From a virus (lineage: Duplodnaviria > Caudoviricetes): a stretch of 64,000 nucleotides of DNA. Where the stretch lies: the IMG/VR virus record IMGVR_UViG_3300028833_000053, one strand, 5' to 3'. Position 1 is the stretch's first letter, and every line of letters begins with the position of its first letter. A model generated the notes under the pieces. The model saw only the letters and a program-made list of their open reading frames with translations. It ran no database searches and was not told the DNA's origin. The position numbers and the translations under genes were made by a program. Shown in pieces: positions 22,830 to 32,194 of the stretch.

Positions 22830-23582
22830 ATGAAACCAATGGACGAAATCTGGAAATCCGCACCAGTCCTGTGCGAGTTGAAGCGGAGTTCAACTCCGCG
22901 AATCAGCAAAGTGCCGTGCGACAAGGCAACAGCTCTTGTTGAGAAGTGCTTTGACTACAAGTTCACCGGCGAGTCAAAGGTGTTTCCCTTTGAGGTTCCG
23001 AAGGAGTTGCTTGACCTGGATGTGAACATCATCCAAATCTACGGTCCCTCCGGCGCTGGCAAGTCCACTTTCCTCACTGCCTTCCAGAAGGCCGGCTGGC
23101 ATTTCCCCAAGAGGGAGTATGACAATTCCAAGTCAATCATTTCCAACTTCATTGAGAATCCCAAGGCCGGGTCGAGGGCGTTCAACGCAGTTGGTCTGCG
23201 TTCCAAGCCGCTTTGGTGCAAGCCGCGCAACGTCTTGTCCACCGGCGAGGGCTTCCGCGCCGACATGGCGTTGAACCTTGAATCAAACGTCATGATTGAC
23301 GAGTACACCTCCGTTATCAACCGCGAGGTTGCCAAGTCCGCTTCCTTCAGCATTGGGAAGCACGTCCGCAAGATGGGGTACAAGAACGTCATCCTTTGTG
23401 GTTGCCACAAGGACATTGTGGAGTACCTGAAGCCCGACATCCTTGTTGACCTTGAGACCGAGAAAGTCTATGACTTGCGAGGGTTCAGCCTGGGAAAAAC
23501 ATCGACCTCTCCTTCGAGCAAATTGAGGGCGCGGAGCGGAAGCGAGAGGTCTGGAAAATTTTTGCTCCGCATCACTATTTGA
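22830..23582 (+). CDS. ABC-type P-loop ATPase (0-frame part of a predicted ATPase-GNAT fusion)
   Basis: Walker A GPSGAGKST, signature LSTGE, Walker B VMIDEYTS, CH switch. Confidence 0.85.
   Translation: MKPMDEIWKSAPVLCELKRSSTPRISKVPCDKATALVEKCFDYKFTGESKVFPFEVPKELLDLDVNIIQIYGPSGAGKSTFLTAFQKAGWHFPKREYDNSKSIISNFIENPKAGSRAFNAVGLRSKPLWCKPRNVLSTGEGFRADMALNLESNVMIDEYTSVINREVAKSASFSIGKHVRKMGYKNVILCGCHKDIVEYLKPDILVDLETEKVYDLRGFSLGKTSTSPSSKLRARSGSERSGKFLLRITI
23492..23551 (+). promoter_or_regulatory. Predicted -1 programmed ribosomal frameshift site
   Basis: In-frame slippery heptamer G_GGA_AAA (23492-23498), 5-nt spacer, then stem GACCTCTC(23504)/GAGAGGTC(23544). Confidence 0.7.
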
Positions 23583-24265
23583 GCCACGGAATCAACCTTG
23601 GCGCGGATTGCTGGGTGTTGAAATGGGGTGATGCCCTTGTTGGGTTCTGTGCGGTCCGCGTCCACCCTTCGGGAACCATGAACTTCGCACGTTCCATCCA
23701 CAGGCTTGTCATTCTCCCCGACTTCCAGGGGCTGGGCGTTGGAACCCGTTTCCTTGAGGAGATTTGCAAGATCTACGTCAACCGTGGAATCAAGGTGCAT
23801 ATCCGCACGGCGCACGAAAGCCTGGGCATCCACATGGGACACACTCCCACATGGAGGGCAACGGGCAGGAATGGAAAGCAGGGCGCGATTTCCAATGGCA
23901 AGATCAACGGCAAGAACCAGAACATGTACATCGTGAACTCCACAAGGTATTCATACGAGTACATGGGCGAGGATTGGGCGTTGCCCCACAAGGAAATTGT
24001 TGTGGATTCGCTTTCCAACATCGACATCAACGAGATGCGCAAGATGCTTGTGGAGTTGAAGAAGCACAACTACGTCACGGTGGTGCATAGCCGTGTGCGT
24101 GAAACCACAGCGTTGAACAAGCTGTGTTGCGAACTTGGAATCCGCACCGAGCTGCTTTACCTCAACAACCACGAGAAATCCGTGTTGAATGGAAAGCACC
24201 GTGGGAAGATGAAGCTTGTTTCGCTGAAGCCTGGGCATAAGCCCGTCTACAGGAAGGTGGCGTGA
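23498..24265 (+). CDS. GNAT-family acetyltransferase (-1 frame), probably fused to the upstream ATPase
   Basis: Frame is open from 23474 with no ATG before WKIFAPHHYLSH; acetyl-CoA motif RLVILPDFQGLGVG. Confidence 0.8.
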   Translation, partial: NIDLSFEQIEGAERKREVWKIFAPHHYLSHGINLGADCWVLKWGDALVGFCAVRVHPSGTMNFARSIHRLVILPDFQGLGVGTRFLEEICKIYVNRGIKVHIRTAHESLGIHMGHTPTWRATGRNGKQGAISNGKINGKNQNMYIVNSTRYSYEYMGEDWALPHKEIVVDSLSNIDINEMRKMLVELKKHNYVTVVHSRVRETTALNKLCCELGIRTELLYLNNHEKSVLNGKHRGKMKLVSLKPGHKPVYRKVA

Positions 24266-24887
24266 TGCCATGCAGGTGTGGGAATTAACTGCCGACCTTA
24301 CACATCATCCATTGACTGAACCAGGAAAGAACTTCAGTGGGAAAACCGAGGTGAAAGTCGTTGTTGGGGAAAATGACTTGCCGATTGTCGAGTCAAAGTA
24401 TTCTCCCGAAAATGACACGTTGTATTTGATAGCAAAGGTGGTGTAAAAGATGATGACCATAAAAGACGCAAAGAAAATTCTTGACGAGTTCGACGACAAC
24501 TACAACATGCCCGTACTGGGCAGGTTGTTTGAGGACTACAACCCCTATCTTGTGTCGGACGATTTCTACCTCTTCATGCGGGACATGAACTCCAAGGACT
24601 TAACCCTTGCGGAAATTTATGGTCATCTTGCCAACCTTGGTGACACGCAGGACGATCTTGGTCCGCATTTCATCCACAACCTTTGGGTGTTGATTGAGGC
24701 TCTGCAGAAACTTGATGAGAGGAAAGGAGACAGCAAATGACATTGGCCGCAGTTATCGTTTGGACAATTGGCGATATACTCGCTTTGGGCATTCTTGCCG
24801 TAATTGCGTTGCTCCTGGTTTGCTGCCTTGTCAAGGAACTTGCTTGCAGTGCGTGGAACAAGATAAAGGGAATGTTTGGGAGGGACA

Positions 24888-25376
24888 ATGAAAGTTCTGT
24901 TTCTTGACATAGACGGGGTTCTCAATTGCATGTGTCCTGCGCCTTTGCAGGACAACAACGATTGGATTGACCTTGACGAGTGGCGTTACGGGTTCAATCC
25001 AGATCTTGTGGCGAGGCTCCGCTATGTCATTGCGAACACGGACTGCAAGATTGTCATATCCTCATCGTGGAGACACCACGTCAACTATGCCCCATACCGG
25101 CCCGACATGAACTGGCGTGACGTGTTGGCTGAAAAGTTGAGGCGCACAAGGGATGAAATCATCGTCGGCGAGACCCCATCCGATCCAAAGGGTCAGAGGG
25201 GAAGGGAAATAGCGGAGTGGCTCAAGACGCATGAGGTTGAAACGTTTTGCGTTGTTGACGATGAAGTGGTTGACATTCTTCCATACATTGAAAATGCCAA
25301 TGTTGTCAAGACGGACATGACAATCGGCTTGACAATTGAGGATGCAAGGCGTATAATAAATGTGTTGAACAGATAA
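24888..25376 (+). CDS. HAD-superfamily protein (RNA-repair 'Swiss Army Knife' type)
   Basis: VLFLDIDGVLN, IVISSSWR, RGREIAEWL, VVDDE. Confidence 0.8.
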   Translation: MKVLFLDIDGVLNCMCPAPLQDNNDWIDLDEWRYGFNPDLVARLRYVIANTDCKIVISSSWRHHVNYAPYRPDMNWRDVLAEKLRRTRDEIIVGETPSDPKGQRGREIAEWLKTHEVETFCVVDDEVVDILPYIENANVVKTDMTIGLTIEDARRIINVLNR

Positions 25377-25663
25377 GAAAGACAAAGGAGACACAGAATG
25401 AAAACTGAATTGCCGAAGGTTGAGAGAATGACAGACCGCGAGAAGAAGGTGGTTGAATGGGCGTTCAACTTCGCACATTCCATTGTGGCGGGCGACTTCG
25501 GTCTGCCCAGTCCCATGTGCTATACCATGAACAACCTACAGGACGCCGTACATGCCTTGGCGGACGAACGTGGAATGACTGTTGAAGATGGATGCTCCAC
25601 GGACTACCTTGCGTTCAACCGAGGGTATTGGGATGGTGTTGAGGAAAGGTTGAGGGGAAAGAA

Positions 25664-25978
25664 ATGAAACTCTATCACGTCACCAATCCAGAGAACGTAG
25701 ATTCCATTTTGAAGAATGGTTTGTTGCGTTGCCATGGGGATCATAAATCCTCTTTCATCTGCTTGTCGGAAGATCCAGACAGTTGGATTCACGAAGGGCT
25801 TGTCTTACTGGAGGTTGACGTTGATGGGTTGAAATGCAGAATGACAACTTGGAAGTATGATCAAGAGTACCCGATTGACGAGGTTTGTGTTTGGGGTGAC
25901 ATTCTCCCGGAGAGAATAAAGGCAGTGAATTTGGAGAACAAAAATGACAAGACAGGAAGCGAACAGGCAGATAGTTGA
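25664..25978 (+). CDS. Small ART-fold-like protein
   Basis: LYHVT...SILKNGL...ICLS...LLEVD...GDILPERI. Confidence 0.5.
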   Translation: MKLYHVTNPENVDSILKNGLLRCHGDHKSSFICLSEDPDSWIHEGLVLLEVDVDGLKCRMTTWKYDQEYPIDEVCVWGDILPERIKAVNLENKNDKTGSEQADS

Positions 25979-26783
25979 GGCTATCAAGGACATGGTTGAA
26001 CTTTATCCCGACATGAGGTTTCACCAACTTCTTCAGAACATGGGGGTTGAGCAACCTGTGATTGACCAGTGGTACGAGGAATCGGATGAGACTTTGTGCA
26101 ACATGAAGAAAGGGATGAAGCTATGAGCGAGAAAATTGAACTGGAAAAGACGATAGTGAGAATGGGTGCGTCCCCGTGTTTTGGCATCATCCACTATAAC
26201 GAGGACAATGACACCAATGAATACTTCGCGGGGTTTTTCAATGAAGTGGAGTGCATTGGGACGGAGGAAGAGTGCCAGTGCTGGGAAATGGAGGAATGGG
26301 TGGACAACCAGGACGTCGCCCTTTTCTTCTCCACGCCAGACGAGGCAAAGGCATGGCTTGCGAACATTGATGAGGAAAAGCAGCCCAACTGCAAAATCAT
26401 GTTGTATGGGTATTGCGAAAAGCCAGGATTTGACGGTTGCCACTATTTTCCGTTGAAGGAGTTCAAGGTATGACGAATTTTCAGCCATTCAAGGACAAGA
26501 TTTGGGAGACCGCCCGTGATGGGGACAAGTCCGAGTTTGACCGTGCCTGCGAAGACCTAATGAAGAAGGCCGTTGAAGATTTATTCAGAGTTGGGTGGAA
26601 CATCTATCCCCAGAAGATTGAGGATGTCTATGAACTTCTGGACAACGTGGCCGAGTGGTCTCACGAAAGGTGGAAAGAAGCCATGGAGTGCGGTGACGCT
26701 CCCTATGAGGACGTTTCACCCGGTGAGGGGTTTCTGCTAGTCAAGAAGGTGATTCAGGAAGCCATCGGTGGCAAGAAAGAGGA

Positions 26784-27425
26784 ATGAGCAGGTTTTGGGT
26801 ATATTTCAAGCGGATATTCAACATCCAGATTCAGGAGAACCAGGGCTTTCTCCTGTTTTCTTCTGCAATTTCCGGTTTGATATACACCTATTCCAATCCA
26901 CCCATAGTCAAGGAAATCATATCCAAGCTGCCGGCCCAGTACATTTCGTTTGAGGGTGCGTGGTTCTGCATGTCCGCTCTCGTCATTGGCGCGATATGGA
27001 AGAACAAGACAAGGGAATTCGCCATGAAGTTCTTTACATGGCTTGCATTGACGGAATCCCTTGGAAGTTTTCTTCTTTCAATCTACCTTGTGTTCGTCAG
27101 CTACAACGTGTGGGTGTTTGCAATTTTGACTTTGCTTTACGCCAGCATTGTCACCACGTTCATCGGCAAGTGCATAATGATGTTCCAGTCAAAGTTGTGG
27201 AACGGCAAGGAGAGGGAAATGTACGACAACACCGCGTCCATATTCAGAAACGGTGTTGCGATGGTTGGATTTGCCCTTGCCATAATAGCCATGCCATCCT
27301 TGAACAATGCGATTCTGCTATGGGGAATTGGATGCGTGTTCGACGACATCGGGTGGATAATAGTGTATAATAGAACTAGGGAGAGATTGATTGAACTGGG
27401 AGTGAATGAAGATGAGTCAGCTTAA
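26784..27425 (+). CDS. Multi-pass membrane protein
   Basis: About 6 hydrophobic segments. Confidence 0.65.
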   Translation: MSRFWVYFKRIFNIQIQENQGFLLFSSAISGLIYTYSNPPIVKEIISKLPAQYISFEGAWFCMSALVIGAIWKNKTREFAMKFFTWLALTESLGSFLLSIYLVFVSYNVWVFAILTLLYASIVTTFIGKCIMMFQSKLWNGKEREMYDNTASIFRNGVAMVGFALAIIAMPSLNNAILLWGIGCVFDDIGWIIVYNRTRERLIELGVNEDESA

Positions 27426-28389
27426 GATTAAAGACGGGATTTTGTGCGTCAAGGATTTCAACAAGACCAACAAGAAAATGGAAACGGGTGACGATGGAAT
27501 AGTCTACTGCAACTACATTCCAATGACGCTTTCGGAAGAGGAATGGAAGAAGCGAGAGAGGGAGTTCCGAGCCAACAAGACCTATGCGAAGGTTTCCTTG
27601 CAGCACCCAAATCCCAGATACCGTGGGAAGCGCGGAATCATCTGGGAGACATACTTTCTCAATGGGAACGAGCAGTGTCTGCTTGAAATCGAGACGGTGA
27701 ACACAGTTAGCGAAGATGGATTTTCCACCTTGGTTGGTGTAGTGTATCCAAATGGCTACAACAAGATTTGGTTCCCGAAAGCCATACTGGAGAATTTCGA
27801 GAAGTACGATGAAAATGGAGACTTGGTGAAATGAACGTAGGTGAATTGAAAGAGGCGTTGAAGGTCGCGCCCGACGATATGCTTGTCAAGGTGTGCGTGA
27901 ACACTCCAGCGGGCTGGATTTGTCCAGATGGGTGCGCGATTGGCGTAAAGGCCGTCCATCATGGAATTGACTGGCATACGCACGAAATTTTGATTGTACC
28001 TGAATTCATGCTGGACATCCACGATGTTGAGGCTTGGGGAAAACCCGTGAAGGAGGAAGGTTGAACATGGAAACGGACTATGCGTACTACCAGGTCATGC
28101 GAAGCAGGAACAACGGTGACTTTTGGTCTAACTTGACTTCCGGGCAGGAATTGGATTGGGATGCGGCCAATTACTTTATGGACAAGGAACGGGAGAAGCA
28201 TCCATCCGACTGGTTGAGGTTGGTGAAGGTTCAAGCGACAACCATCAGGGACTACACGGGCAACGAGAAGAAGAAAAAGGACGTGTTCATGAATGGCATG
28301 ACCGCAGAGGAATACATCCGGAAAATCGAGGAAGCCCACGAAATCTCAAAGGGAAGCCAGTTGCGCTTTAAGTAAGAAAGGAAACTGAA

Positions 28390-28710
28390 ATGAATATTGA
28401 ATGGAAAGACGTTAAGGGAATCGTGTACGATCAGATGATTGAGTACATGAAGATGTTTTTGTATGAACAGAATTGCCCTGAGACTTGGAACCAGATAAGC
28501 GCGGGCTTGCATTGCATTGTTGCGACCTACAAGAAGAATGGAATCATTGCCGACTATATCGTGAAGTGCGATGACACGATTAACACCAATGAGGTGATTG
28601 ACAACAACGAGTTCCATTGCGTTTTGGGGTGGAAGGTCAATGCCACCGACGAGTTCACTCTTGTGAATTTTGTACTTTCCCCTGGTGGAATTTACGTAAA
28701 CGTCATTTGA
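28390..28710 (+). CDS. Stand-alone protein resembling the tail sheath C-terminal domain
   Basis: FLYEQNCPETWNQI...GIIADYIVKCDDTINTNEVIDNNEF. Confidence 0.55.
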   Translation: MNIEWKDVKGIVYDQMIEYMKMFLYEQNCPETWNQISAGLHCIVATYKKNGIIADYIVKCDDTINTNEVIDNNEFHCVLGWKVNATDEFTLVNFVLSPGGIYVNVI

Positions 28711-29000
28711 GGTTCAGAACATGACAATGTGTCTTTGGGCATTGGGGTCCGTTCTATACGTTGCTGTCGCAGTGATGTGCTTCAGGTTCTTGCGTAAGAC
28801 GAAGCAGCACATTTCGGAGAGCAAGCATTATCGCCGTCATCCCGAACAAATGGAGGAATTTGGTGGAACAATCACCGACGTGGTTGTTTCCGCCCTCTGG
28901 CCGCTTCAGGTAATCGGCTTTTTGTTCTATGGAATGAAGGGGTGAACCCTGTACAAATTTGGGCGAAACTGGTATAATATGGGTGGAGAACATTTAAGAC

Positions 29001-30125
29001 ATGACTATTATCAGCAAGTACATTGACCCAGGGACAAAGAACCTTGCGATTGGCGAGGAAGATTGGACGGCGCTGAACGCGCAGTACGACAAGGATTTCA
29101 TAAAGGCTCAGATGATTGAGGAAATCCTTGGTGGCAACGTCAGGTTTCCCCACAACGACATAACCATTGAGGACGCCGCTGATGCGTTCCGCAAGTTGAT
29201 TGACTACAAGTGCCGGGATTTCCAAATCGGTCAGGTTATGACAAGGTACGAGTACCGCTATCCAATCGGCGACAAGTTCCTTGTTGACAGCACGGTTGGA
29301 AACGATGCCTCAAACTTCTTCCAGCAGGAGGCGCGTTCTTGGGCAAGTGGCCACGGAGACCCTTGTCCTCAGGACGTGTGGAAAAGCGAGAGGTACTTGA
29401 ACTCCGCCTTGAAGCCATTGTGGACGTTGAAGATGAAGAAGATAAACATGCACTCGTTCCATTCGGCGATTGCATTGAGAAGGTATTGGGCATCCCAGTT
29501 CCGTCCCGCTATGGCGAAGTCAATCTACGAGAAGTTCAACGCGGTTGACGTGCTTGACTTCAGCAGCGGTTGGGGTGACAGGCTTTGTGGATTTTACTCT
29601 TGCCAGAACACGCGCTCCTACATTGGCATCGACCCAAACAAGGCGGTCTATGACCAGTACTTCAAGCAGGTTGACTTGTACAAGACCATAATGCCCAACA
29701 AGACAACGACTTTCTACAATGCGCCCGCCGAGGAAGTCATACTTGAACCCGAAATCGTGGACACAGTTTTCACCTCACCGCCGTATTTCTGCGCCGAGAC
29801 CTATACTCAGGACGACACTCAGTCTTGGGTGAGATACAAGGAGCGCAACGATTGGCTCAAGGGCTTCATGTTCCCTACGTTGAACAACGTGTGGCGGGCG
29901 TTGAAGCCGGGTGGACATCTCATAGTGAACATTTCGGACGTCCACCGCAAGGGCAAGGTTCAACAGATTTGCGACCCGATGAACGAATACATCCGCGTCA
30001 TTCTCCACGGAACTCTGGTGGATTCGTTTGGGATGAAACTTGGTCAACGTCCGGCGTCTGGCGCGTACAAGGGAAAGACCGGCACTTGCGTGGAGCCGAT
30101 TTGGGCGTGGAGGAAAGAGGCTTGA
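29001..30125 (+). CDS. SAM-dependent DNA methyltransferase (amino-MTase type)
   Basis: VLDFSSGWGDRL, YIGIDPN, FTSPPYF, LKPGG. Confidence 0.85.
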   Translation: MTIISKYIDPGTKNLAIGEEDWTALNAQYDKDFIKAQMIEEILGGNVRFPHNDITIEDAADAFRKLIDYKCRDFQIGQVMTRYEYRYPIGDKFLVDSTVGNDASNFFQQEARSWASGHGDPCPQDVWKSERYLNSALKPLWTLKMKKINMHSFHSAIALRRYWASQFRPAMAKSIYEKFNAVDVLDFSSGWGDRLCGFYSCQNTRSYIGIDPNKAVYDQYFKQVDLYKTIMPNKTTTFYNAPAEEVILEPEIVDTVFTSPPYFCAETYTQDDTQSWVRYKERNDWLKGFMFPTLNNVWRALKPGGHLIVNISDVHRKGKVQQICDPMNEYIRVILHGTLVDSFGMKLGQRPASGAYKGKTGTCVEPIWAWRKEA

Positions 30126-30126
30126 T

Positions 30127-31554
30127 ATGACATATTTGGAACAACACAGAGACGAGATATTCAAGAAGTACGACAAGGAAACCTTGCTACGGGACGTTTG
30201 GAACTACAAGAACGGCAAGGGAAGGTTGACGAAGTTCATCAACCAGTTCTTTGAGGAGTGCATATTCAACTGCAAGGACAACCGATGCAAGTTGACGCCG
30301 ATGGAGGCTTTGCAGAACGATGAGGTGATGGCGAAAATCATTGGCGCGTTTGCGAAGAACCCAAAGCTCTACTATGGGACGGAAGTTGCGAACGTGAAGA
30401 AGTCGTTGTCTGTTTCAGGAATCGGTGCAAGGAAAGTTGCGAACTTCTGCCCAAGGAACGCAAGGACAATCTACAATAAATACTTTGACGATATACGTGG
30501 ATTGAACATCCTTGACACTTCAAGCGGCTTTGGAAGCAGAATGCTCGCCGCCACGTTGAATGGCGCAAACTACTTTGGATTCGATCCCAATCCCGAACTT
30601 CACGAAAAGTTGAAGGAGTGTTACAGCTTCTTGGTGGAGAACAAGGAAGTGCCAGAGGGTCAGGTGTGCAAGTTGTATTGCAAGGGAAGCGAGGAACATG
30701 TTCCCGAACTTGACGGCAAGATGGACTTGTCCTTCACCAGCCCCCCGTATTTCAACCATGAGACCTATGCTTCTGATTCCGGAACTTCCACAACCAACTA
30801 CAACAACTATGATGGTTGGCTGTATGAATTCGTTGTTCCAACATTGTTGAACACCTACAAGTACCTCAAGATTGGGGGACTTGCGATGATCAACATCAAG
30901 AACATGGTGTCAAGGGGAAAGAAGCCGCTTTACGATGACTTCATGCGCGTGTTCCAGATGATAGAGGGATTCGAGTACGTTGAAACCTTCACGATGGAAC
31001 ATCAGCACAAGAGGACGCTCAAAGAGGGCATGAACTACGTTGGATTCCAGGAACCAGTGATGGTTTACAAGAAGGTTGCTGAGTGCGAGAACGATCCCAA
31101 CAAGATTGTGGAAATGTTGAAGTCTGGCATACAAGGCGTTGTGCGAATGAAGAAAGAGGATACGCCAAAGGAGCTTCACGTTGTCTCAGTTTGGCGGGAG
31201 GATGCAACCCCAGCGCCCCAGCCAAAGGTTGAAGTTGTGGAAACACCCGTAGAAGTGAAGGAAAATGAGCCACCCAAGCCAAAATATGAAATTATCGTGG
31301 ATTCCCTTGACAACATAGACCCAAGGGCGTTTGCGAAGTTGATGCTTGAATTGAAGGACAAGGTGGATTTGTCAATAGTTCATGGGGACAATTCCACGGA
31401 TGACGTTGTGGTGAAGCTGTGCAATGGACTTGGATTCAAGTTGAAGGAGCTTTACAATTCCGACGAAAAACTCTATACTGAATATGTAGGAAAGAAGAAA
31501 CTGGTGAGTTGCCAAGCTGGGCAGAAGCCGGTGTTTGAAGTCATAGAGGTATAA
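30127..31554 (+). CDS. Second SAM-dependent DNA methyltransferase with an extra C-terminal domain
   Basis: ILDTSSGFGSRM, YFGFDPN, FTSPPYF; C-terminal ~90 aa similar to the GNAT C-terminus. Confidence 0.85.
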   Translation: MTYLEQHRDEIFKKYDKETLLRDVWNYKNGKGRLTKFINQFFEECIFNCKDNRCKLTPMEALQNDEVMAKIIGAFAKNPKLYYGTEVANVKKSLSVSGIGARKVANFCPRNARTIYNKYFDDIRGLNILDTSSGFGSRMLAATLNGANYFGFDPNPELHEKLKECYSFLVENKEVPEGQVCKLYCKGSEEHVPELDGKMDLSFTSPPYFNHETYASDSGTSTTNYNNYDGWLYEFVVPTLLNTYKYLKIGGLAMINIKNMVSRGKKPLYDDFMRVFQMIEGFEYVETFTMEHQHKRTLKEGMNYVGFQEPVMVYKKVAECENDPNKIVEMLKSGIQGVVRMKKEDTPKELHVVSVWREDATPAPQPKVEVVETPVEVKENEPPKPKYEIIVDSLDNIDPRAFAKLMLELKDKVDLSIVHGDNSTDDVVVKLCNGLGFKLKELYNSDEKLYTEYVGKKKLVSCQAGQKPVFEVIEV

Positions 31555-31555
31555 G

Positions 31556-32194
31556 ATGGAGTCTAACGTAGAAGGTAGCAACTTTGGTGAGAAGTCAACG
31601 TTTGTGGACTTGCCCGAGAACGACATTGGAAGTTCCGATCAGTTCATTGGAAACTTCCTTGCCGAGCCCGGTGATTTGTCCAACATCGTCAAGAGCAAGA
31701 TTTGGGTGACGTCCGACACCCATTTCCACCACAGGAACATTCTCATCTACGAGGCCGCTTCCCGTCCTTGGTCGGACCGTGACCAAATGGACAGAGCCAT
31801 GATTCAGCGTTGGAACGAGAGGGTTGGACCGAATGACGTTGTTTTCCATCTTGGGGACTTTTCGTTCGGGTCAAAGGGACGTGTGCGTGACATCGTGTCG
31901 AAATTGAAAGGAAAGATTTTCCTTCTTCTTGGAAACCATGACAGGGAGCAATGGGATTGGAATTGGCTTGACCTTGGCTTTGACCGTGTGTTCAAGCATC
32001 CTTTCCTCATGGATGGCAAGTTCATCTTCTCACATGAGCCTTTGGGTGAGATTCCAGAGGGCAAGGTGAACATCTACGGCCACGTCCATGGAAGCAAGTA
32101 TTACAACACGAAGGACGACAACAGGCTTTGCGCTTGCGTGGAGCGTTGGGATTGCGCTCCAATTGAGTATGAACACATCAAGAGCTTGTTCTGA
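31556..32194 (+). CDS. Calcineurin-like metallophosphoesterase
   Basis: SDTHF, HLGDF, LGNHD, SHEP, GHVH. Confidence 0.9.
   Translation: MESNVEGSNFGEKSTFVDLPENDIGSSDQFIGNFLAEPGDLSNIVKSKIWVTSDTHFHHRNILIYEAASRPWSDRDQMDRAMIQRWNERVGPNDVVFHLGDFSFGSKGRVRDIVSKLKGKIFLLLGNHDREQWDWNWLDLGFDRVFKHPFLMDGKFIFSHEPLGEIPEGKVNIYGHVHGSKYYNTKDDNRLCACVERWDCAPIEYEHIKSLF

What the first reader, a model, noticed from the sequence alone, without database searches (positions are those of the whole stretch)
23993..31554. Unrecognised ~90-aa C-terminal domain shared by the GNAT and a DNA methyltransferase 7 kb apart
Seen: the GNAT tail EIVVDSLSNIDINEMRKMLVELK...VVH...KLCCELGIRTELLY...GKMKLVSLKPGHKPVY (23993-24262) aligns with the MTase tail EIIVDSLDNIDPRAFAKLMLELK...IVH...KLCNGLGFKLKELY...GKKKLVSCQAGQKPVF (31288-31551). 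In the MTase it follows a Pro/Glu linker. Inference: a common docking or dimerisation module that assembles ATPase-GNAT and the tandem MTases into one DNA-modification complex, possibly making an undescribed base modification.
Basis: partly seen in the sequence, partly recalled or inferred. Interest (0 to 1): 0.75.

Follow-up and report, generated by a model that had tools for sequence, protein, structure and literature searches.

The report
Shared adaptor tail on phage modification enzymes
A previously undescribed 90-residue domain ends two otherwise unrelated enzymes of a giant sheep-gut phage, and in related phages it always marks one ATPase-acetyltransferase plus one swappable methyl- or sugar-transferase, so it most likely links these enzymes into one nucleic-acid-modifying system.

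Summary
The two tails are 41% identical over 90 residues (E 4e-15) at the stated coordinates, and they are the only two copies in the 434-kb phage genome. Pfam, PHROGs, PDB sequences, Foldseek (PDB, BFVD), a full VIA scan (best Z 4.8) and the ESM Atlas all fail to recognise the domain. AlphaFold2 folds it confidently (pLDDT 90.6) as a small alpha/beta domain.

Two profile searches found it on only four enzyme kinds:
- the ABC-ATPase-GNAT, which is split by a -1 frameshift here and fused in frame in some relatives;
- methyltransferase A;
- methyltransferase B;
- TAGT glycosyltransferases.

Six independent long assemblies each carry exactly one basic "G" tail, on the GNAT, and one neutral or acidic "M" tail. 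The M tail sits on whichever enzyme lies directly upstream of a metallophosphoesterase gene. M tails do not follow their catalytic heads on a tree (AU p 0.003 and 0.0006). Near-complete phages whose methyltransferase B lacks the tail also lack the ATPase-GNAT.

The best reading is an adaptor that couples a constant ATPase-GNAT to an interchangeable second enzyme. Physical binding is untested, and the substrate (DNA or tRNA) is open. The scan had already noted the same stretch and the frameshift in this genome.

The parts
22830..23582 (+). ABC/SMC-type ATPase ORF (250 aa, zero frame) with Walker A GPSGAGKST. It is the N-terminal half of the ATPase-GNAT gene.
   Evidence: phrog_11143 positions 7-191, E 2e-41. 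Weak AAA_23 and ABC_tran P-loop hits.
23491..23497 (+). Slippery heptamer G_GGA_AAA in the ATPase frame. A -1 shift here joins the ATPase to the GNAT frame, which is open from 23474 without a start codon.
   Evidence: Sequence and frames. Relatives L003 and L004 have A_AAA_AAA at the same joint. In-frame fused relatives of 471-482 aa exist. Contigs of two other runs cross the site without an indel.
23579..23983 (+). GNAT acyltransferase domain, listed from the first possible start codon. The real N-terminus lies upstream in the -1 frame.
   Evidence: PF00583 E 1.7e-8, above its cut-off. phrog_11143 positions 226-352, E 4e-21.
23984..24262 (+). G-type tail domain (93 aa), strongly basic (net +9), directly after the GNAT domain.
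   Evidence: AlphaFold2 pLDDT 90.6.
29001..30125 (+). Methyltransferase A (374 aa, SPPY motif IV, motif I upstream). It has no tail here, but carries linker plus tail in relatives where it is the only enzyme in the slot.
   Evidence: PF01555 30.4 bits against a cut-off of 26.7. Paralogue of MTase B, 30% identity, E 4e-24. Tailed forms: P0026, P0030, P0133, L010, L008.
30127..31137 (+). Methyltransferase B catalytic part (residues 1-337).
   Evidence: PF01555 32.1 bits. AlphaFold2 pLDDT 87.5. Nearest solved folds are TrmN Z 18.1 and Trm11 Z 17.8. Most family members are tail-less proteins of about 324 aa.
31138..31275 (+). Pro/Glu/Lys-rich linker. It holds the short conserved motif ELHVVSVWRED (31171-31203), which recurs ahead of the tail on MTase A, MTase B and TAGT heads.
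31276..31551 (+). M-type tail domain (92 aa), net charge -2.
31556..32194 (+). Metallophosphoesterase gene that follows the M-tail enzyme in every locus, whatever the enzyme's catalytic head.
   Evidence: PF00149 E 9e-9. Weak PdeM-like hit. Synteny.
24876..25376 (+). HAD_SAK_2 phosphatase gene, syntenic just downstream of the GNAT-tail gene. It is context and may not belong to the system.
   Evidence: PF18143 E 2e-29. Synteny.

Best explanation
The tail is an undescribed, autonomously folding alpha/beta domain of about 90 residues, confined to one clade of roughly 400-kb ruminant-gut phages. It has two subtypes. The basic G type ends the ABC-ATPase-GNAT, a protein made by a -1 frameshift here. 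The neutral or acidic M type sits behind a flexible linker on whichever modifying enzyme occupies the slot directly upstream of a metallophosphoesterase gene: methyltransferase A, methyltransferase B or a TAGT glycosyltransferase. I read it as an adaptor. It brings the constant ATPase-GNAT and one interchangeable second enzyme to the same place, either by G-M pairing or by docking both on one common partner. The two activities then act together on the same nucleic acid, probably phage DNA. Evolution can swap the catalytic head while the adaptor stays. Shown here: the homology, the predicted fold, the restricted set of fusion partners, one G plus one M per genome, the fixed slot, the mismatch between heads and tails on a tree, and the charge dichotomy. 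Inferred: that the domain mediates protein-protein association, and the substrate.
For: 1) Two profile searches found the tail only on ABC-ATPase-GNAT (split or fused), PF01555-type MTase A, MTase B and PF20691 TAGT. 2) Six independent long assemblies each carry exactly one G tail and one M tail within the sequence examined, 6-8 kb apart: four IMG/VR records scanned whole, G000, G001, G003 and G004, and the 20-kb loci fetched from a 145-kb contig (L010) and a 418-kb contig (L014). 3) The M-tail enzyme always abuts the metallophosphoesterase gene. The arrangements are MTA - MTB-tail (window), TAGT - MTB-tail (G001), MTA-tail (L010, L008) and TAGT-tail (G003, G004, L011). 4) M tails do not follow their heads. 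A TAGT tail is 83% identical to an MTA tail, while two MTA tails share only 54%. One-clade trees are rejected for MTB-linked tails (AU p 0.003) and TAGT-linked tails (p 0.0006). 5) G tails have net charge +7 to +12 (22 sequences). M tails have -4 to +2 (15 sequences). 6) MTase B is usually a tail-less protein of about 324 aa. None of 79 tail-less MTase loci in IMG/VR has an ATPase-GNAT within the fetched flanks. Three near-complete phage genomes of about 100 kb with tail-less MTase B have no ATPase-GNAT at all. 7) Four or five strong canonical PF01555 MTase matches elsewhere in this genome lie outside the only two tail copies, so the tail is not a general DNA-MTase accessory. 8) The domain folds confidently on its own (pLDDT 90.6), and a linker that looks disordered by composition precedes the M type. 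9) The ABC-ATPase-GNAT has been predicted to acylate a DNA base (Iyer et al. 2013, as cited in PMC7824862).
Against: No experiment or computation here shows binding. All tail-bearing genomes form one clade, so the co-occurrence of G and M tails may reflect a single ancestral event and not a functional need. In the two tandem arrangements the first enzyme lacks the tail, so tethering is not required for every enzyme of the island. The domain keeps a few invariant polar residues (D15, H36, K84-P85), which could mark a ligand site and not an interface. The exhaustive profile scan did not test the tail alone, so partners outside the word-indexed searches may have been missed.
Confidence: 0.5

Rival explanations
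1. Each tail independently binds the nucleic-acid substrate (DNA or tRNA) and simply raises the local concentration of its own enzyme. The two enzymes are not linked.
For: All heads are nucleic-acid-modifying enzyme families. G tails are strongly basic, +7 to +12. The best, insignificant fold resemblances include the DNA-binding nuclease-like domains of ERCC1 (Z 4.8) and FAAP24 (Z 4.4 and 4.2).
Against: M tails are neutral to acidic, -4 to +2, and often follow an acidic linker. Canonical DNA MTases of the same genome lack the tail. This reading does not explain why there is exactly one G and one M per genome.
Confidence: 0.2
2. The tail is a small ligand-binding or regulatory domain, for example for a nucleotide or a cofactor, that switches both enzymes in response to the same signal.
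For: The first half has a Rossmann-like beta-alpha-beta-alpha-beta layout. The residues invariant across both types lie at predicted strand ends: D15, H36, K84-P85. Weak fold hits go to SLOG/YpsA, DUF2493 and universal stress proteins.
Against: All those matches are below Z 5 or have E above 0.01. There is no glycine-rich or phosphate-binding loop. The conserved Cys is Ser in the divergent TAGT tail P0036. Ninety residues is small for a nucleotide pocket.
Confidence: 0.12
3. The M tail is a passenger. It is the conserved 3' flank, together with the phosphoesterase gene, at which gene cassettes recombine. Its likeness to the GNAT tail is an old duplication with no present functional link.
For: The slot is fixed and the heads are exchanged. 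The linker motif ELHVxSVW and the tail travel together.
Against: The tail keeps an open frame and a confident fold across 30-45% identity between types. A variant strain changes the M tail only by substitutions and an in-frame 3-nt insertion. A recombination flank need not be coding, and the G copy sits at a different, stable place.
Confidence: 0.1
4. The similarity is due to chance or to biased composition.
For: None found.
Against: E 4e-15 pairwise. The two types retrieve each other in database searches. The fold prediction is confident.
Confidence: 0.01

Closest known systems
ABC-ATPase plus GNAT system predicted to acylate a DNA base (Iyer, Zhang, Burroughs & Aravind 2013, as cited in PMC7824862; phrog_11143)
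   Same: The window's ATPase and GNAT match phrog_11143 colinearly. They have the Walker A motif and the GNAT core.
   Different: Family members are mostly about 350-400 aa and lack the tail. The 357-position phrog profile ends before the tail. Here a 93-aa tail is added, and the gene is broken by a -1 frameshift site.
TAGT, TET-associated glycosyltransferase (PF20691)
   Same: Relatives carry TAGT heads in front of the same linker and tail (122 bits against a cut-off of 27.5).
   Different: The window genome has no TAGT. The TAGT-bearing relatives show no ThyA-like hydroxymethylase. The TET search was uninformative. The usual hydroxymethyl-pyrimidine acceptor is therefore not evident.
Exocyclic-amine methyltransferases: PF01555 N6/N4 DNA MTases, and tRNA m2G MTases TrmN/Trm11
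   Same: SPPY motif IV. Pfam score above the cut-off. PADLOC type II MTase hits. Class I MTase fold.
   Different: Motif I lies about 70 residues upstream of SPPY, unlike beta-class PF01555 enzymes. The nearest solved folds are tRNA m2G MTases (Z 18.1 and 17.8), and no DNA MTase is among the 50 rows shown. The C-terminal linker and tail are confined to one sub-lineage.
Docking or dimerisation domains that join separate enzymes of one pathway, such as polyketide synthase docking domains or cohesin-dockerin pairs (my own knowledge; an analogy only)
   Same: A small terminal module behind a flexible linker, in two complementary types, kept while the catalytic units are exchanged.
   Different: No sequence or fold relation was found, and binding is not shown here.
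ERCC1 central domain and FAAP24 (nuclease-like fold); SLOG/YpsA/DUF2493
   Same: The best structural resemblances found (Z 4.8, 4.4 and 4.4).
   Different: All are below Z 5 with rmsd 3.3-4.0 A, which is no better than background for a small alpha/beta domain.

Membership tests
Any described protein domain family (Pfam-A, PHROGs, PDB chains), for the tail | Significant profile or fold match | tested here: not met
   Pfam at E<=10 gave only noise, best 0.0024 and below its cut-off. PHROGs gave none. The best PDB sequence hit is 0.008 to flavocytochrome b2, with no matched stretch that passes on its own. Foldseek PDB and BFVD gave none at E<=0.001. VIA wide gave none at Z>=5.
ABC-ATPase-GNAT fusion (phrog_11143) | Colinear match of the ATPase and GNAT halves to one profile | tested here: met
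   ATPase residues 26-213 match profile positions 7-191 (E 2e-41). GNAT residues 3-132 match positions 226-352 (E 4e-21). The -1 frame supplies the missing stretch.
ABC-ATPase-GNAT fusion (phrog_11143) | Walker A P-loop and GNAT core | tested here: met
   GPSGAGKST is present. PF00583 scores 35.1 bits against a cut-off of 20.7.
ABC-ATPase-GNAT fusion (phrog_11143) | Acylates a DNA base | not testable with these tools
   This is a published prediction only (PMC7824862).
PF01555 N6/N4 DNA methyltransferase (MTase A and B) | Score above Pfam's gathering cut-off | tested here: met
   30.4 and 32.1 bits against 26.7. Only the region from motif IV onward is matched.
PF01555 N6/N4 DNA methyltransferase (MTase A and B) | (D/N/S)PP(Y/F) motif IV | tested here: met
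   TSPPYF is present in both, and is invariant in 30 homologues.
PF01555 N6/N4 DNA methyltransferase (MTase A and B) | Beta-class order, with motif IV ahead of the SAM-binding motif I | tested here: not met
   FSSGWG and TSSGFG lie about 70 residues upstream of SPPY.
PF01555 N6/N4 DNA methyltransferase (MTase A and B) | DNA as substrate | tested here: inconclusive
   PADLOC type II MTase profiles hit at 1e-8 to 1e-9. The nearest solved folds are tRNA m2G MTases.
TAGT (PF20691), for heads in relatives | Score above the cut-off over the whole profile | tested here: met
   85-127 bits against 27.5, covering profile positions 1-205.
Programmed -1 ribosomal frameshift (dnaX or lambda G-GT type) | X_XXY_YYZ heptamer in the zero frame at the joint | tested here: met
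   G_GGA_AAA at 23491-23497.
Programmed -1 ribosomal frameshift (dnaX or lambda G-GT type) | The break is conserved in relatives, and the sequence is confirmed independently | tested here: met
   A_AAA_AAA lies at the same joint in L003 and L004. Contigs of runs X3 and X5 cross the site without an indel.
Programmed -1 ribosomal frameshift (dnaX or lambda G-GT type) | Stimulatory downstream structure | tested here: inconclusive
   A hairpin of -20.3 kcal/mol starts 6 nt after the site, but its z-score is only -1.3.
SLOG / DUF2493 / YpsA | Fold match over the domain | tested here: inconclusive
   YpsA Z 4.4, rmsd 3.9 A over 83 residues. A DUF2493 protein in BFVD matches at E 0.1.

The most novel reading that the evidence does not exclude
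G and M tails form a charge-complementary heterodimer, making a two-step base-hypermodification machine. The ATPase-GNAT installs an acyl or aminoacyl group on a base. The tethered second enzyme then decorates that group, by methylating its amine (SPPY enzymes) or by glycosylating it (TAGT, which has no hydroxymethyl-pyrimidine source in these genomes). Swapping the head at one genomic slot changes the final modification, as a way to escape host restriction.
Probability: 0.15. Interest if true: 0.85.

Novelty: new variant of a known kind. Interest (0 to 1): 0.55.

Why it matters
The ABC-ATPase-GNAT is a widespread phage enzyme with no demonstrated activity. The profile scan found 1,364 cluster representatives at E<=0.001, though that profile also contained a TAGT row. 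Finding the enzyme tied, through a private domain, to methyltransferases and a TAGT glycosyltransferase adds contextual evidence (by association, not proof) that it works on nucleic acid, and it names a concrete partner to test. The fixed slot with exchangeable heads and a constant tail would be a simple way for phages to vary a modification while keeping its delivery. The domain is also a new entry for domain databases.

Tried and rejected
1) Complex prediction on G tail plus M tail, each with its own alignment, returned no verdict (score 0.00, controls not run). This is no evidence either way.
2) The single exhaustive profile search went wrong. HMMER treated the short tail rows of A2 as fragments and built a 484-position profile from the two long rows. 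The top 150 are therefore mostly tail-less ATPase-GNAT proteins, and a tail-only exhaustive scan was not achieved. Only the tail-bearing rows P0036, P0048, P0057, P0069, P0113, P0126, P0133, P0138 and P0158 were usable.
Contigs of the ENA and Logan proteins, such as the TAGT-tail P0314 on a 414-kb contig, could not be read.
4) The search for related loci with P0033 and P0026 found nothing in IMG/VR. A7 was too diverse to give search patterns.
5) Searches for TET/JBP found nothing, but the control genomes were silent too, so absence is not shown.
6) Iyer et al. 2013 is not held. I cite it only through PMC7824862. COG2401 appears in no held paper.
7) The hairpin after the slip site is not better than shuffles.
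8) Two metatranscriptome runs hold the whole stretch at 100% identity. Contigs from an RNA library do not prove transcription.
9) I considered a catalytic Cys-His-Asp reading of the invariant residues and dropped it, because the Cys is Ser in P0036 and lies inside a predicted helix.
10) On the tail tree the starred branches alone do not force more than one origin per head, and monophyly of MTA-linked tails is not rejected (p 0.24). The groups were named after the tree was seen.

Full report
**Setting.** The window is the minus strand of 361268-425267 of a 433,895-bp IMG/VR virus record with direct terminal repeats. The stretch recurs in sheep and bovine gut metagenomes. All genes discussed lie on the + strand of the window.

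- The GNAT ORF (23579-24265) and the second methyltransferase (30127-31554) share a C-terminal stretch with 37 of 90 residues identical, E 4e-15.
- A profile of the two tails finds just these two places in the whole genome.
- About half of the aligned nucleotides agree, so the two copies are old.
- In the methyltransferase the tail follows a Pro/Glu/Lys-rich stretch (residues about 338-383). In the AlphaFold2 model of residues 1-340 the folded part ends with a helix at 324-333.

**Is it known?** No library recognises it.
- Sequence libraries gave nothing: Pfam at E<=10, PHROGs, NCBIfam on the whole proteins and PDB sequences.
- The ESM Atlas gave nothing.
- AlphaFold2 folds the GNAT-side tail with mean pLDDT 90.6 as strand-helix-strand-helix followed by a beta meander.
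- Foldseek finds nothing at E<=0.001 in the PDB or BFVD.
- An all-against-representatives VIA scan peaks at Z 4.8 for the ERCC1 central domain, and no chain reaches Z 5. Weak rows for YpsA/SLOG, DUF2493 and universal stress proteins are at background level.

**Where else does it occur?** Two profile searches of 5.8 billion proteins found 35 and 55 proteins, all from metagenomes. They fall into four architectures:
- GNAT plus tail, as a split ORF of about 200-250 aa or as an in-frame ATPase-GNAT-tail of 471-482 aa;
- homologues of the window's first methyltransferase ("A", tail-less here) carrying linker plus tail;
- homologues of the second methyltransferase ("B");
- TAGT glycosyltransferases (PF20691) of two kinds.

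The tails form two subtypes that separate with full support on a tree.
- G tails, on the GNAT, have net charge +7 to +12.
- M tails, on all other heads, have net charge -4 to +2.
- Across both types only I14, D15, H36, C49, G72 and K84-P85 are invariant or nearly so. The Cys is Ser in the divergent tail P0036.

**Genome context.** Six independent long assemblies each have exactly one G and one M tail within the sequence examined, 6-8 kb apart in a syntenic block.
- Four are IMG/VR records scanned whole: G000, G001, G003 and G004.
- Two are 20-kb loci fetched from a 145-kb contig (L010) and a 418-kb contig (L014), so for these the count covers the locus only.

The enzyme with the M tail always lies directly upstream of the metallophosphoesterase gene (window 31556-32194). 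Four arrangements occur:
- MTase A, then MTase B with tail (this window);
- TAGT, then MTase B with tail (G001);
- MTase A with tail (L010, L008);
- TAGT with tail (G003, G004, L011).

M tails do not track their heads.
- A TAGT tail and an MTase A tail are 83% identical, while two MTase A tails are 54% identical.
- Trees that force MTase-B-linked or TAGT-linked tails into one clade are rejected (AU p 0.003 and 0.0006). For MTase A the clade is not rejected (p 0.24).
- Support on individual branches is modest.
- A short motif, ELHVxSVW(R/K)xD, recurs in the linker on all three head kinds.

Heads, or linker-tail units, have therefore been exchanged more than once at one slot.

**Link between the two tail-bearing genes.**
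- Methyltransferase B is usually a tail-less protein of about 324 aa. Only its closest sub-lineage has the tail.
- Among 80 IMG/VR loci of this family, only the one from G001 has tails. None of the 79 tail-less loci has an ATPase-GNAT in the fetched flanks.
- Three near-complete phages of about 100 kb with tail-less methyltransferase B have no ATPase-GNAT anywhere.
- The ATPase-GNAT family is large and mostly tail-less.
- This genome has four or five strong canonical PF01555 methyltransferase matches, all outside the only two tail copies.

The tail is thus not a general accessory of DNA methyltransferases. It marks a pair: the ATPase-GNAT and one further enzyme. The caveat is that all tail-bearing phages form one clade, so this is in effect one evolutionary observation.

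**What the heads are.**
- The ATPase and GNAT ORFs are the two halves of phrog_11143. They are joined by a -1 shift at G_GGA_AAA (23491-23497), and the GNAT frame has no start codon upstream.
- Relatives have A_AAA_AAA at the same joint, and others are fused in frame.
- Contigs of two further runs cross the site without an indel.
- The scan had already flagged this frameshift here and in many other phages.
- Aravind's group predicted this ATPase-GNAT to acylate a DNA base (PMC7824862).
- The two methyltransferases are paralogues (30% identity) with SPPY as motif IV. They pass Pfam's cut-off for PF01555 and hit PADLOC type II methyltransferase profiles.
- Motif I precedes motif IV, however, and the nearest solved folds are tRNA m2G methyltransferases: TrmN at Z 18.1 and Trm11 at Z 17.8. 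No DNA methyltransferase is among the 50 rows shown. "DNA" methyltransferase is therefore likely but not secure.
- The TAGT-bearing relatives show no thymidylate-synthase-like hydroxymethylase, so the usual TAGT acceptor is not evident.

**Mechanism.** The best-supported reading (0.5) is an adaptor domain that couples the constant ATPase-GNAT with an interchangeable second enzyme. The coupling could be heterotypic G-M association, which the opposite charges make plausible, or docking of both on a common partner.

Rivals:
- independent nucleic-acid tethering (0.2), which fits the basic G tail but not the acidic M tail;
- a ligand-sensing domain (0.12);
- a passenger of cassette recombination (0.1).

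Binding was not shown. The one complex prediction gave no verdict and is listed only under things tried.

**Limits.**
- The exhaustive representative search ran with an unintended 484-position profile.
- The model coordinates cannot be inspected, so conserved residues could not be mapped on the surface.

**Verdict.** This is a real, undescribed, lineage-restricted domain with an informative distribution. It is a new variant of the known theme of modular accessory domains on phage modification enzymes. Interest is moderate.

Noticed in passing
window 23474-23582 (slip site 23491-23497): The ATPase and GNAT are one gene joined by a -1 shift at G_GGA_AAA. Relatives L003 and L004 have A_AAA_AAA at the same joint, and other relatives are fused in frame. 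Contigs of two other runs confirm the sequence. Earlier scan notes already flagged this.
   Followed up: partly
window 29001-32194; L004:15972-18915; L010:8687-10941; L023:8447-10890; L024:8543-10922: A fixed genomic slot upstream of the metallophosphoesterase gene holds MTase A, MTase B, TAGT or two of them. Only the last enzyme carries linker plus tail.
   Followed up: yes
window 31171-31203: The short hydrophobic motif ELHVVSVWRED inside the otherwise Pro/Glu-rich linker recurs ahead of the tail on MTase A, MTase B and TAGT heads. It may be a separate docking peptide.
   Followed up: partly
window 24876-25376; L004:12110-13153: A HAD_SAK_2 ('Swiss army knife' RNA-repair) phosphatase gene follows the GNAT-tail gene in all relatives. 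G001 also has a PP-loop ATPase (tRNA_Me_trans/QueC-like) in the island. These hint at an RNA or tRNA connection.
   Followed up: no
window 30127-31146: The nearest solved folds of MTase B are the tRNA m2G methyltransferases TrmN and Trm11 (Z about 18), not DNA methyltransferases, although Pfam files the protein under PF01555.
   Followed up: partly
G000:C1:38350-39135, 424828-426429, 301411-302805: The genome carries four or five strong canonical PF01555 DNA methyltransferase matches (93-133 bits) that lie outside the two tail copies.
   Followed up: no
window 24262-24442 and 31307: A variant strain (run X5, 90-99% identical) lacks 181 bp right after the GNAT-tail stop codon. It also has an in-frame TGA insertion inside the M tail. 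Run X6 shares the 181-bp gap.
   Followed up: no
P0090; P0195: One distant ATPase-GNAT carries a PHD finger after the GNAT domain. One MTase-B relative is a single 661-aa chain with two methyltransferase domains, which mirrors the tandem genes here.
   Followed up: no
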